DNA of 34,848 bases from a virus (taxonomy: Duplodnaviria > Heunggongvirae > Uroviricota > Caudoviricetes). Made by a program: the position numbers and the translations under genes. The stretch lies in the IMG/VR virus record IMGVR_UViG_2651869781_000011; one strand, given 5' to 3'. This document shows positions 17,925 to 24,404 of the stretch, piece after piece. The stretch's first letter is position 1. Every line of letters begins with the position of its first letter. The notes beneath the pieces are model-generated. The model did not search any database, had not been told where the DNA came from, and saw only the letters and a program-made list of their open reading frames with translations.

Positions 17925-17999
<75 letters not shown>

Positions 18000-18002
18000 A
18001 TA

Positions 18003-18078
<76 letters not shown>

Positions 18079-21393: not shown

Positions 21394-22500
21394 TCAAACA
21401 ATCTGGAAAATATTTCTTGGATTTGTAATAGGTCTGTTGATGGAGAACAACTCACGAATTAAATCTTGGCTCAAGCCAGTTTTCATAAGAATTCTTAGCC
21501 AGGTTGCATCATCCAGCATTTCAATCGCCTCGGCCAGCATGCCGGGTTCTTCAGGGCGCAAAAGTTCATCACCAGGTTCAACTCTCGTATACCCTCTGGA
21601 ATTAAGATGCATATAGCCAGTTCTTGCCTGTTCCTGGGTCAATAAGCCTAATGCGCTGGCTCGATAAATACACATTTTAAGGCTGATTTTCCATCTAAGT
21701 TTAAATTCAACCAGAGCATTCCAGTCGAATTGCTTACCTCGTATTCGAGGAAATTCTTTAATGAAAGATAACCTGGGAACTAATAAGGCGCTCGAAAAGT
21801 GATCGGCTTGTGATTCCGTAAGTTTATCACCTGTCGTTATGCCCTCATGCATTACTAAATGCCCTAATTCATGACCTAAATCAGAGCGAAATCTACATAT
21901 GCTTTTTTTAACATTGTTCCTGATGATAACAGGCCTGTTATTGTGAACAGTAAAAGCATCAACACGATCATCGACTCCCGTAACATGCGCAACGATTACC
22001 CCTAAACTCTCCGCCAATTTAACCATTGATGATATAGGGCCAAGACCTAAATTCCAGGCACGGCGACAATCTTCTGCCACTCGCTCAATATCATTCGGAG
22101 TAAGTAATTCAGCCCCTGGGTGCTCCGGTATGTTAACGTCAGGAAATTCGATTTCACCTTCAACAGCAGAAATTATAATATTAAGAATCTCAGCCCTGGC
22201 CAATACACTATTAGTCAGCGTTTGAGTCCTGGACTTCTTACTCCGAAAATGGCAGACATCACTTTCCAGAGCGTATTTTCGTTCAGTAAAAAGAAAACTG
22301 GACTTAATCATAAGCGCTGAAGATATTAACTCAAGACATTGCTCCGATGGCCTGCACCCCTTCTCCAGTTTGCTAACGAATTGCTTTGTCTTGCCAATTT
22401 TTTCGGCTAACTCTTCACAAGAAAGCCCAACAGCCATTCTCGCTAGTTTGAGCTTATCACCCCGATACTCAGTGAAGTTATTCACCTGATGTTCCATCAC
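21394..22500 (-). CDS. XRE-family HTH fused to ImmA/IrrE-type zinc metallopeptidase (COG2856-like)
   Basis: 368 aa; N-terminal HTH (KLKLARMAVGLSCEELAEKIGKTKQFVSKLEKG); HEXXH motif HELGHLVMHE; AT-rich; start overlaps upstream gene by ~20 nt. Confidence 0.75.
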   Translation of the reverse strand: MMEHQVNNFTEYRGDKLKLARMAVGLSCEELAEKIGKTKQFVSKLEKGCRPSEQCLELISSALMIKSSFLFTERKYALESDVCHFRSKKSRTQTLTNSVLARAEILNIIISAVEGEIEFPDVNIPEHPGAELLTPNDIERVAEDCRRAWNLGLGPISSMVKLAESLGVIVAHVTGVDDRVDAFTVHNNRPVIIRNNVKKSICRFRSDLGHELGHLVMHEGITTGDKLTESQADHFSSALLVPRLSFIKEFPRIRGKQFDWNALVEFKLRWKISLKMCIYRASALGLLTQEQARTGYMHLNSRGYTRVEPGDELLRPEEPGMLAEAIEMLDDATWLRILMKTGLSQDLIRELFSINRPITNPRNIFQIV

Positions 22501-23128
22501 TGCTCACATCCAAATCTTTATCCTTCGTACGCCGACGAAGAGGCACCTTATTAATCTCCGCTTCGTCAGGGAGTGTGTTATAATCAAGAGGCATAAGCGG
22601 CATCGATGCTGTAGATTGATGAGAAACTATACTAATCTGAGCACCATAAGTATTAAATCCAACAAGAGCTACCTCCCAACGAGGCAGTGTGGACTCTAAT
22701 TCACCATCGCCCTCTTCGGATAAAAAAGGCTCAGCTATGACTCGCCATGTAATATCTTGCTCAGCCTCAACATCACCAAACAATGAGAGCTGCTCATACT
22801 CTACTTTATTTCGACGCAGACGATGTTTCTTTTTGGGGTTATTAATGCAATCTTTGGTAAATTGTAGCGGAACTTTATTTAAAGCAACTACATAGTCCAA
22901 CCCCTTGGAAATCATCTCAAGGCCAGGAATTGCATCTTCATTTTGAATAAGATGATTTCTGACCCAATCATAAGCCCTTACACCTTCAGACCAGTTGCTG
23001 TCTAATGCGTGCTTATGATAGTACAGCTGCTCAAGTACGTTAGCGATCTCCGCCAACAAGTGGCGAACATAGTTTTCAGCAAGATAAGGTTGAAATTCCC
23101 AACAAGGAGCTAACTGATTTTCATTCAT
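22478..23128 (-). CDS. Unknown protein (216 aa), first gene of the two-gene cassette
   Basis: ATG at 23128; acidic, probably disordered C-terminus; no motif I recognise; AT-rich. Confidence 0.6.
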   Translation of the reverse strand: MNENQLAPCWEFQPYLAENYVRHLLAEIANVLEQLYYHKHALDSNWSEGVRAYDWVRNHLIQNEDAIPGLEMISKGLDYVVALNKVPLQFTKDCINNPKKKHRLRRNKVEYEQLSLFGDVEAEQDITWRVIAEPFLSEEGDGELESTLPRWEVALVGFNTYGAQISIVSHQSTASMPLMPLDYNTLPDEAEINKVPLRRRTKDKDLDVSSDGTSGE

Positions 23129-23202
23129 TTCAAGTTTCGCTTTTTTTAGAATTCGTAAACCACATATTTTCGCATTTTTCTATTTTTGTCAACCAGACTA
23201 AT

Positions 23203-23225
23203 GCAAAAACCCGCCGAAGCGGGTT
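23203..23225 (-). terminator. Terminator hairpin downstream of hok
   Basis: CCCGC-cgaa-GCGGG stem followed on the minus strand by TTTTTGC. Confidence 0.5.
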
Positions 23226-23293
23226 AAGTGCGGGTGCGTTGAGGATGCCTGGCACATCAGAGGTGGCGGGAGATTACTCCCCCGCCGGGTCTC

Positions 23294-23449
23294 TTACTCC
23301 TCAGGTTCGTAAGCTGTGAAGACAGCGACCTCCGTCTGGCCGGTTCGGATTCGTACCTCGCAGAGGTCTTTCCTCGTTACCAGTGCCGTCACTATGACGG
23401 TTAAACAGATGACGATCAGGGCGATTAACATCGCCTTTTGCTGCTTCAT
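23294..23449 (-). CDS. hok: Hok/Gef-family type I toxin (HokD/RelF-like)
   Basis: 51 aa MKQQKAMLIALIVICLTVIVTALVTRKDLCEVRIRTGQTEVAVFTAYEPEE, checked codon by codon; below the 60-aa cutoff of the ORF track; AAGGAG SD. Confidence 0.85.
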   Translation of the reverse strand: MKQQKAMLIALIVICLTVIVTALVTRKDLCEVRIRTGQTEVAVFTAYEPEE

Positions 23450-23738
23450 AGCCTGCTTCTCCTTGACCTTTCGGTCCGTAAGAGGCTAATCTCTATGTGT
23501 CGCATAGATATGGCCTCAGATTAATGTTAAGCGTCTTGCAGGACGCGTAATGTTAACTGGGGCTTTTCTCTATCTGCCGTTGGTGTTCATGCCTGAGGCA
23601 GATAGCCTCAAGCACCCGCAGCAATTCTACTTAACTCTCCTTTTCCCGCAAATCGTTTTTATCCCCAGCGGCAAATCGAATACACCACCAGCGCCACCGC
23701 CATTGCAATTCCCATCGTTGCGAATGCTTCAGGCCAGG

Positions 23739-24404
23739 TCATTGACTCACCTCCAGCGGCGGTTCTGGTAGCGGCATCCAGTGAGTTACTTGCCCAAGGT
23801 CATTACCCGGACTAACTGCTATACCTCCGCGTCGGAACGTGTCTCCGATATAGCGTGCGGAATATATTAATGGCCCAGCCTCGCTGTCGATATTCACCGA
23901 AATAAGCACGTTCTGGCTCTTTTCAGGCATTCGCTCACTGCAGCTTATCCAACTATCCGGAGCTCCCGGAGAGTTGCCCGACAGCTCGTTCAACTTGTAA
24001 GTCTGGCTTACAGGCTCGTCACCATTAAGCATGGCGTTGCTCCGCTCTATACCATCCAGCGCGATTCGCAGTGCCTGAATTGTGGTAGTGCTATCGTTTG
24101 GGGCTATTCCATATCGCTCGAATACAGCGATATGACCGCGCATAATCTCAGGTGTAAGTTCTTTGTAAGCATAAGCAAGAGACGCTGATGCATTATCCGG
24201 CACAACCGACGCAGGCGCGGCAGCATAAACAGGAATAACGTCCGCTTGCTCTTTATTGCTTTCATCCGTTAAAGCCCAGAATAATTTCCCGGCTGGATGT
24301 TTGAAAATATAAGCAATTGGTTCTGCTTCCAGCGATGCCAGAGCAATTTTGAATAACTCACCCTCTACTCGTGCCCCCCCCTGAATTGGGGTGGCATTTC
24401 GCAA
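23739..24404 (-). CDS. Hypothetical phage protein; likely N-terminally split by a C8 homopolymer frameshift
   Basis: Track ORF starts at a TTG; an ATG at 24459 opens a 33-codon ORF that would fuse in frame if the 24374-24381 C-run were 7 rather than 8. Confidence 0.5.
   Translation of the reverse strand: MRNATPIQGGARVEGELFKIALASLEAEPIAYIFKHPAGKLFWALTDESNKEQADVIPVYAAAPASVVPDNASASLAYAYKELTPEIMRGHIAVFERYGIAPNDSTTTIQALRIALDGIERSNAMLNGDEPVSQTYKLNELSGNSPGAPDSWISCSERMPEKSQNVLISVNIDSEAGPLIYSARYIGDTFRRGGIAVSPGNDLGQVTHWMPLPEPPLEVSQ

What the first reader, a model, noticed from the sequence alone, without database searches (positions are those of the whole stretch)
23203..23738. Stand-alone hok toxin with a coupled 19-codon leader ORF and no relBE upstream
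In Qin as I recall it, hokD is the third gene of the relB-relE-hokD operon. Here about 290 bp upstream of hok carry no minus-strand ORF of 60 aa or more. A 19-codon ORF (23446-23505, MRHIEISLL...) ends in an ATGA overlap with the hok start, reminiscent of mok-hok coupling. A Sok-like antisense RNA would be expected on the + strand here but I could not pin down its promoter.
Basis: partly seen in the sequence, partly recalled or inferred. Interest (0 to 1): 0.5.

Follow-up and report, generated by a model that had tools for sequence, protein, structure and literature searches.

The report
Complete prophage hok/sok toxin-antitoxin locus
This is an ordinary, complete hok/sok toxin–antisense-RNA module carried by a lambda-like prophage; the 19-codon ORF is its "mok" leader in a less common reading frame, and the relBE-hokD arrangement of E. 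coli K-12 is the truncated exception.

Summary
A 51-aa Hok identical to K-12 HokD lies at 23294-23449 (-). A 19-codon ORF (23446-23505) ends in a TGA that overlaps the hok ATG. No RelB or RelE coding sequence occurs anywhere in the window. The locus is not a bare toxin. It is a full hok/mok/sok type I toxin-antitoxin module. It has its own promoter and a roughly 413-nt mRNA whose 5' end (tac) pairs with a 3' fbi box. It has ucb and anti-SD elements, a Rfam-recognised leader (102.9 bits), and a convergent Sok gene. Sok has -35 TTGACC, -10 TAATCT, a long hairpin and a U-tail, at about 23499-23571 (+). The closest characterised relative is hokW-sokW of Sakai prophage Sp5, at about 94% nucleotide identity. 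K-12 keeps only the segment from 14 nt upstream of hok to the terminator, including an orphan fbi, so relBE-hokD is the derived state. Full leaders occur in 4289 of 5426 complete E. coli genomes, this exact leader allele in 813, and the relE-hokD junction in 1201. The one mildly new point is frame plasticity. Leader-to-hok spacing is fixed at 56-59 nt across the family, but all three frames occur. ATGA is automatic in the -1 frame because Hok starts Met-Lys.

The parts
23624..23652 (-). hok promoter: -35 TTTGCG (23652-23647), 17-nt spacer, -10 TAGAAT (23629-23624), then 6 nt to the +1 G at 23617
   Evidence: Read from the sequence. The -10 and a TTKGCN -35 at 17-nt spacing are kept in about 40 loci that have at least 6 unrelated upstream flanks. 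The site falls below the threshold of the simple promoter scan.
23205..23617 (-). Full-length hok mRNA, about 413 nt
   Evidence: The 5' end is set by the start of the Rfam RF01794 match and by homology with R1. The 3' end is an intrinsic terminator. The MFE is -172.4 kcal/mol with z -7.1.
23606..23617 (-). tac (translational activator) element GGGUGCUUGAGG at the mRNA 5' end
   Evidence: It is invariant in 55 loci.
23557..23566 (-). ucb (anti-SD of the leader), AAAGCCCCAG
   Evidence: In the full-length fold it pairs with the leader SD. In the isolated 5' 61 nt it pairs with tac instead.
23514..23517 (-). Shine-Dalgarno GAGG of the leader ORF, 8 nt before its ATG
   Evidence: Invariant in the alignment.
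23446..23505 (-). 19-codon leader ORF, the mok equivalent, in the -1 frame relative to hok; its TGA overlaps the hok ATG
   Evidence: In R1 only the 19 mok codons upstream of hok are needed (PMC9841398).
23490..23513 (-). Hypervariable cassette around the leader start, which is the target of the Sok 5' tail
   Evidence: Nucleotide diversity is 0.26 here against 0.006-0.05 in the rest of the locus. There are 13 cassette types among 55 sequences.
23480..23487 (-). AGCCUCUU box: complementary to the leader SD (dcb-like) and to the hok SD (anti-SD); lies inside leader codons 7-9
   Evidence: The local fold pairs CCUCUU with AAGGAG. Invariant in the alignment.
23456..23464 (-). hok Shine-Dalgarno region AAGGAGAAG
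   Evidence: K-12 homology starts here, at 23463.
23294..23449 (-). hok (hokD-type) toxin gene, 51 aa
23265..23289 (-). 3' stem-loop, expected to be the protective 3' end of the processed active mRNA
   Evidence: Variation is GC, GU or AU at two pairs, and pairing is kept in all but 1 of 494 cells (helix 16, 99.8% paired). The role is inferred from R1 (PMC9841398).
23232..23244 (-). fbi (fold-back inhibition) box CCUCAACGCACCC: 12 Watson-Crick pairs with tac and one bulged C
23205..23225 (-). Intrinsic terminator of hok mRNA
23463..23492 (+). sok promoter: -35 TTGACC (23463-23468), 18-nt spacer, -10 TAATCT (23487-23492)
   Evidence: The -10 is positionally homologous to the TAACCT mutated in the sokW promoter-less construct (primers in PMC8621323).
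23499..23571 (+). Predicted Sok antisense RNA, about 73 nt: 5' tail GUCGCAUAGAUAU, a long hairpin, and a CUUUUCUCU tail
   Evidence: Fold energy -31.9 kcal/mol with z -5.7. It covers the complement of the leader ATG, leader SD and ucb. The ends are inferred, not mapped.

Best explanation
This is a complete hok/mok/sok type I toxin-antitoxin module of the hokD/hokW lineage, sitting in the early-right (nin) region of a lambdoid prophage.

Inferred mechanism, by homology with R1 hok/sok and Sp5 hokW-sokW:
1. A weak promoter of its own makes a stable mRNA of about 413 nt.
2. In the full-length form the 5' tac pairs with the 3' fbi, and ucb sequesters the leader SD, so the mRNA is inert.
3. Slow 3' trimming removes fbi. 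tac then pairs with ucb, which exposes the leader SD and ATG.
4. While the prophage is quiescent, an unstable convergent Sok RNA of about 73 nt pairs through its 5' tail with the leader initiation region. This blocks leader translation and triggers duplex cleavage.
5. When Sok is lost, ribosomes translate the 19-codon leader. They melt the CCUCUU:AAGGAG hairpin that hides the hok SD, terminate at the UGA overlapping the hok AUG, and reinitiate.
6. This produces the 51-aa membrane toxin Hok.

The 19-codon ORF is mok reduced to exactly the part shown to be required in R1. The sequence elements and predicted folds are shown here. Transcription, processing, coupling and toxicity of this allele are inferred.
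For: Toxin: Pfam HOK_GEF scores 82.9 bits, and the protein is identical to K-12 HokD.

Leader RNA: the full-length Rfam RF01794 match spans 23617-23447 and ends at the hok AUG, at 102.9 bits against a cut-off of 59.

Folds: the MFE of the 415-nt transcript pairs tac with fbi and ucb with the leader SD, z -7.1. The first 61 nt alone form the tac/ucb stem, z -4.95. The Sok candidate folds as tail plus long hairpin plus U-tail, z -5.7.

Promoters: the hok -10/-35 is conserved across unrelated flanks. The sok -10 is homologous to the one mutated in the promoter-less sokW construct that lost protection against HokW, and a hok-sense probe over the homologous segment was used to detect sokW RNA (PMC8621323).

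Leader ORF: the ATG is invariant inside a hypervariable cassette. Spacing to hok is 56-59 nt in 34 species-level loci. In R1, mok translation up to the hok initiation region is necessary and sufficient (PMC9841398).

Population: the allele is at least 99% identical in 777 E. coli records. Such conservation across many records argues against a decaying pseudogene.
Against: There are no expression data for this allele. Chromosomal hok loci tested earlier did not mediate post-segregational killing, as summarised in bioRxiv 10.1101/2025.08.07.668861. Covariation support within the family sample is weak, because the sequences are 97% identical; only one pair shows compensatory changes. The MFE of a 3'-trimmed transcript shows a local tac hairpin, not the tac/ucb stem. 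The sok promoter has an 18-nt spacer and a weak -10, and neither promoter passed the generic scan. Termination-reinitiation at AUGA has not been tested for any hok locus.
Confidence: 0.8

Rival explanations
1. The locus is a regulatory-dead or attenuated hok locus. The 1-nt-shorter leader (56 nt instead of 57 or 58) would be a frameshift that weakens coupling. Hok would then never be made at toxic levels, and the module would persist only by hitch-hiking in a successful prophage.
For: The window type is the minority. It makes up 13 of 79 leader-bearing HokD loci and 3 of 34 species-level loci. Earlier tests of chromosomal hok loci found no post-segregational killing (cited).
Against: Every element is intact. 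The allele is at least 99% conserved in 777 E. coli records. Short -1-frame leaders arose independently in Kluyvera and Photorhabdus. In R1, stops placed after the hok start do not affect Hok synthesis.
Confidence: 0.12
2. The short ORF is not translated or is irrelevant. In this reading, Hok translation is controlled directly by mRNA folding and by Sok pairing or RNase III cleavage, without leader coupling.
For: A 19-codon open frame is expected by chance fairly often. The leader peptide sequence is not conserved between frames.
Against: The ATG is invariant and lies 8 nt after an invariant GAGG, inside a cassette whose diversity is 0.26. Spacing to hok is strictly 56-59 nt across genera. The hok SD is predicted to be paired with leader codons 8-9. 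In R1, mutations of the mok start codon abolish Hok.
Confidence: 0.06
3. The locus is a relBE-hokD operon that lost relBE, so K-12 would represent the ancestral form and hok would be expressed only by read-through.
For: K-12 Qin has relB-relE-hokD at the same relative position, upstream of the DUF968 gene (ydfU) and the Q-type antiterminator gene (ydfT).
Against: K-12 keeps an exact fbi box and terminator but has no tac, ucb, leader or sok promoter. An fbi box has no function without tac. The window has no RelB or RelE similarity. Full leaders are 3.5 times more frequent than the relE junction.
Confidence: 0.02

Closest known systems
hokW-sokW of Sakai prophage 5 (Sp5), E. coli O157:H7 (PMC8621323)
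   Same: The two loci share about 94% nucleotide identity over 577 nt, including the upstream DUF551 gene and the 27-aa ORF (one search hits H2-H4). They have the same tac, ucb, fbi and terminator, and the sok -10 is at the same position. Both sit in a lambdoid prophage. For hokW-sokW, toxicity, antitoxin activity of sokW, and induction-dependent HokW synthesis have been shown experimentally.
   Different: The HokW C-terminus is VDYESEK against TAYEPEE here. The Sp5 leader ATG is 57 nt from hok and in frame, giving a 70-aa open frame, whereas here the spacing is 56 nt and the leader has 19 codons. The Sok-target cassette differs. The sok -35 is TTGCCT with a 17-nt spacer in Sp5, against TTGACC with 18 nt here.
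hok/mok/sok (parB) of plasmid R1 and related F-type plasmid loci
   Same: The architecture is the same: tac, ucb, leader SD and ATG, the AGCCUCUUAC box, hok SD, hok, 3' stem-loop, fbi, and a convergent Sok. In both, 19 leader codons precede the hok start.
   Different: The Hok protein is only about 44% identical (PMC8621323). R1 mok is 58 nt upstream in the +1 frame and runs 70 aa across hok. R1 is on a plasmid, where its role is post-segregational killing.
relB-relE-hokD (relBEF) of the K-12 Qin cryptic prophage
   Same: HokD protein is identical. The DNA is 98.5% identical from 14 nt upstream of hok through the terminator, corresponding to window 23463-23204.
   Different: K-12 lacks the hok promoter, tac, ucb, leader ORF and sok. 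relBE occupies that position. The K-12 fbi is an orphan.

Membership tests
hok/mok/sok type I toxin-antitoxin family | Small Hok/Gef membrane toxin | tested here: met
   Pfam PF01848 scores 82.9 bits against a cut-off of 22. PHROG 251 gives E=2.8e-33.
hok/mok/sok type I toxin-antitoxin family | Structured 5' leader homologous to other hok mRNAs | tested here: met
   Rfam RF01794 matches over model positions 1-157 of 157, at 102.9 bits against a gathering score of 59. The match is on the hok-sense strand and ends at the hok AUG.
hok/mok/sok type I toxin-antitoxin family | Long-range tac (5' end) to fbi (3' UTR) pairing that closes the full-length mRNA | tested here: met
   There are 12 pairs and one bulge, and the MFE fold contains this helix. 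Pairing holds in 100% of cells across 55 loci, but variation is only GC to GU, so there is no compensatory proof.
hok/mok/sok type I toxin-antitoxin family | ucb sequesters the leader SD, with an alternative tac/ucb stem in the active form | tested here: inconclusive
   The ucb:SD helix is in the full-length MFE. The tac/ucb stem forms in the isolated 5' 61 nt. It does not appear in the MFE of one arbitrarily trimmed 368-nt transcript.
hok/mok/sok type I toxin-antitoxin family | Leader ORF (mok) with its own SD, translated up to the hok initiation region | tested here: met
   GAGG is followed by 8 nt and then the ATG. Nineteen codons reach the hok ATG. The frame and length differ from R1 mok. 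Translation itself was not tested.
hok/mok/sok type I toxin-antitoxin family | Convergent antisense Sok gene overlapping the leader initiation region | tested here: met
   Promoter motifs, a hairpin and a U-tail are present on the + strand. The promoter is homologous to the sokW promoter whose -10 was mutated in PMC8621323. This is sequence-level evidence only.
hok/mok/sok type I toxin-antitoxin family | Hok toxicity is neutralised by Sok | not testable with these tools
   Shown for hokW-sokW (PMC8621323). The identical HokD CDS is listed among previously characterised toxic homologues used as positive controls (bioRxiv 10.1101/2025.08.07.668861).
relBE-hokD (relBEF) operon | relB and relE immediately upstream of hokD | tested here: not met
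   tblastn gives no hit in the window with E below 0.1. Minus-strand ORFs in 23450-23738 are all 27 aa or shorter.

The most novel reading that the evidence does not exclude
The hok leader ORF is frame-free. Across Enterobacterales the leader start sits at a fixed 56-59 nt from hok, yet it occurs naturally in all three frames. These are the long overlapping Mok (58 nt), an in-frame version that predicts a 70-aa N-terminally extended Hok (57 nt, the majority of prophage hokD/hokW loci), and a minimal 19-20-codon leader that ends on the hok AUGA (this window). Together with a hypervariable Sok-target cassette in otherwise nearly identical loci, this would mean two things. The Mok peptide has no function of its own. 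Co-resident prophage hok/sok copies (median 2, up to 8 per genome) are kept orthogonal by diversifying the Sok recognition site. I found no description of this in the papers searched.
Probability: 0.5. Interest if true: 0.4.

Novelty: new member of a known kind. Interest (0 to 1): 0.25.

Why it matters
The main value is corrective. The textbook K-12 relB-relE-hokD arrangement is a truncated derivative, and the intact hokD-type hok/sok module is one of the commonest prophage cargo elements in E. coli (79% of complete genomes). For type I toxin-antitoxin specialists, the window allele is a natural experiment. It confirms that only the first 19 mok codons matter. The frame polymorphism and the hypervariable Sok-target cassette give ready-made material to test translational coupling and antitoxin specificity. 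It does not open a new class of system.

Tried and rejected
- The generic sigma-70 scan found no promoter in 23100-23800. Both promoters have one weak hexamer, so they were identified by homology and by conservation across different flanks instead.
- Covariation counting on 55 related loci was almost uninformative, because the sequences are 97% identical. Only one pair had compensatory changes. I therefore do not claim covariation support.
- Folding a 3'-trimmed mRNA did not reproduce the tac/ucb active form. Only the isolated 5' domain did.
- A literature search for mokD/mokW names returned only fungal Monascus genes.
- The genome-wide pattern scan returned many chance matches in unrelated phyla, as expected for 19 specified bases with a variable gap. 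Only the 34 loci with a Hok-like ORF were used.
- I considered that the same junction (…AC|AGGAGAAGCAGG) in K-12 and in L079 might mark a recombination hotspot. In L079 the upstream sequence is an IS transposase. I did not pursue this further.

Full report
**Observation.** The minus strand of 23203-23738 contains a 51-aa ORF at 23294-23449. It is identical to K-12 HokD and matches Pfam HOK_GEF at 82.9 bits. The ORF at 23446-23505 translates to MRHIEISLLRTERSRRSRL*, and its TGA overlaps the hok ATG. No minus-strand ORF longer than 27 aa lies between hok and the DUF551 gene that ends at 23739. tblastn with K-12 RelB and RelE finds nothing in the whole window. K-12 itself does have relB-relE-hokD.

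**What it is.** Rfam family RF01794 is named 'sok' but is modelled on the hok-sense leader. It matches 23617-23447 (-) over its full length at 102.9 bits, ending exactly at the hok AUG. Reading the sequence against R1 (a database copy) and against the primers and probes of the Sp5 hokW-sokW study gives a complete anatomy:
- hok promoter: TTTGCG-17-TAGAAT, at 23652-23624
- transcription start: about 23617
- tac: 23617-23606
- ucb: 23566-23557
- leader SD (GAGG): 23517-23514
- leader ORF: 23505-23446
- AGCCUCUU box: 23487-23480
- hok SD: 23464-23456
- hok: 23449-23294
- 3' stem-loop: 23289-23265
- fbi: 23244-23232
- terminator: 23225-23205

On the + strand there is a convergent promoter, TTGACC (23463-23468), an 18-nt spacer, and TAATCT (23487-23492). 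Its -10 is the positional homologue of the TAACCT that was mutated in the 'pro-less' sokW construct. The predicted Sok RNA runs from about 23499 to 23571. It folds into a 5' single-stranded tail, a long hairpin and a U-rich tail, with z -5.7.

**Folding.** The 415-nt transcript has an MFE of -172.4 kcal/mol, z -7.1. In that structure the 12-nt 5' end pairs with the fbi box, and ucb pairs with the leader SD. This is the closed, inert form described for R1 (PMC9841398). The first 61 nt alone form the tac/ucb stem of the open form. Locally, CCUCUU (leader codons 8-9) pairs with the hok SD. A ribosome translating the leader would therefore open the hok SD. One arbitrarily trimmed transcript did not give the open form as its MFE. 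Covariation in 55 related loci is too sparse to prove any helix, with 97.6% of cells paired and one compensatory pair. The structural argument therefore rests on the Rfam covariance-model hit, on direct complementarity, and on homology.

**Own promoter.** The TAGAAT -10 and a TTKGCN -35 at 17-nt spacing are retained in loci whose upstream flanks belong to at least six unrelated sequence types. The module therefore carries its own promoter and does not depend on read-through.

**Relation to K-12.** K-12 homology covers only 23463-23204, at 98.5% identity. That is from 14 nt upstream of hok to the terminator. K-12 keeps an exact fbi and terminator but has no tac. An fbi without tac has no function, so relBE-hokD is the derived, truncated state. 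Among 5426 complete E. coli genomes:
- 4289 carry the conserved 97-nt leader, with a median of 2 and up to 8 copies;
- 813 carry the window's 66-nt leader/sok-promoter allele, with 777 records at 99% identity or more;
- 1201 carry the relE-hokD junction.

**The 19-codon ORF.** I examined 83 loci encoding the identical HokD: the window, two E. coli chromosomal loci and 80 IMG/VR loci. In 66 of them the leader ATG is 57 nt upstream and in frame with hok, giving a 70-aa open frame. In 13, including the window, the spacing is 56 nt and the leader has 19 codons ending in ATGA. Four have no leader: three have relE upstream and one has an IS. R1-type loci have a spacing of 58 nt and a 70-aa overlapping mok. 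A species-level survey gave 34 usable loci:
- 17 with 58 nt (overlapping mok);
- 14 with 57 nt, of which 13 are in-frame fusions and one is stopped after 12 codons;
- 3 with 56 or 59 nt and a 19-20-codon leader ending on the hok AUGA (Kluyvera, Photorhabdus, and a soil MAG with the window type).

Every Hok begins Met-Lys, so any -1-frame leader must stop at AUGA. The overlap is a consequence of the frame, not a separate adaptation. Experiments on R1 show that mok translation is needed only up to the hok initiation region, and that the first 19 codons lie upstream of hok (PMC9841398). The window's leader is a natural 'minimal mok'.

**Hypervariable cassette.** The mRNA is about 97% identical among 55 distinct loci. 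The exception is a 26-column segment around the leader ATG. Its nucleotide diversity is 0.26, against 0.006 in hok and 0.03-0.05 elsewhere, and it has 13 cassette types. The ATG itself is invariant. This segment is the complement of the predicted Sok 5' tail. The pattern fits diversification of Sok-target specificity among co-resident copies, but that reading is an inference.

**Mechanism and role.** The likely mechanism is the R1 scheme. A stable, closed hok mRNA is slowly trimmed at its 3' end and refolds. Sok blocks the leader initiation region and marks the duplex for cleavage. When Sok is lost, the leader is translated, the hok SD is exposed, ribosomes terminate and reinitiate at AUGA, and Hok is inserted into the inner membrane. 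In Sp5, sokW disappears and HokW appears after RecA-dependent induction, and the locus doubles phage release (PMC8621323). Here hok is co-oriented with the early-right genes (DUF551, hok, then the DUF968, RusA and Q genes). Induced read-through could therefore interfere with the convergent sok promoter. That is a hypothesis, not a result.

**Verdict.** This is a real and well-formed locus, but it is an ordinary member of a well-known family. The only modest novelty is the leader-frame variant and the family-wide frame plasticity it reveals. I found no description of either in the papers searched.

Noticed in passing
window 21394-23128 (-): Immediately downstream of hok lies a two-gene module. 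The 216-aa protein matches PADLOC RmrT (E=4.6e-25). The 368-aa HTH + Peptidase_M78 protein matches RmrA (E=6e-105). This is a Rosmer-type anti-phage defence/toxin-antitoxin pair. At this position K-12 has rem, and O157 strain 9234 has a NirD/YgiW/YdeI family gene. The slot after hok therefore looks like a cargo hotspot.
   Followed up: partly
window 23659-23742 (-): A 27-aa hydrophobic ORF, MTWPEAFATMGIAMAVALVVYSICRWG, has a start that overlaps the DUF551 stop as ATGA. It ends just before the hok -35. It is conserved in many related loci and lies inside the cloned hokW-sokW fragment of PMC8621323 (primer YO-432). It has no family match.
   Followed up: partly
L003-L082 and L083 (hokD/hokW loci), leader region: In most prophage hokD/hokW loci the leader ATG is in frame with hok and no stop intervenes. 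This predicts a 70-aa N-terminally extended Hok, for example MLNTCRLASYVPKGKEKQA-MKQQK… RefSeq annotates only the 51-aa form.
   Followed up: partly
alignment A1 columns 106-131 (window 23490-23513): The Sok-target cassette is hypervariable (diversity 0.26, 13 types) within loci that are otherwise about 97% identical. E. coli genomes carry a median of 2 and up to 8 such leaders.
   Followed up: partly
L079 341-1429 and the hok junction at about 1486: An IS-type transposase (362 aa) abuts hok at nearly the same junction (…AC|AGGAGAAGCAGG) as the relE-side junction in K-12. These appear to be independent truncations of the leader at the hok SD.
   Followed up: no
window 23309-23311 (-), Tyr47 codon UAC followed by G: The UACG motif at the C-terminal Tyr codon of HokD is present. 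hokD mRNA is reported to undergo TadA A-to-I editing that recodes the corresponding Tyr codon to Cys (numbered Cys46 in the source) (bioRxiv 10.1101/2025.08.07.668861).
   Followed up: no
window 17928-18078 (-): Two adjacent tRNA genes were found by Rfam. A near-identical prophage has tRNA-Ile and tRNA-Arg downstream of the Q antiterminator gene.
   Followed up: no
Rfam RF01794: The family called 'sok antitoxin' matches the hok-sense strand and ends at the hok AUG. It therefore models the hok mRNA leader, of which Sok is the reverse complement of only a part. Strand calls from this family should be read with that in mind.
   Followed up: yes
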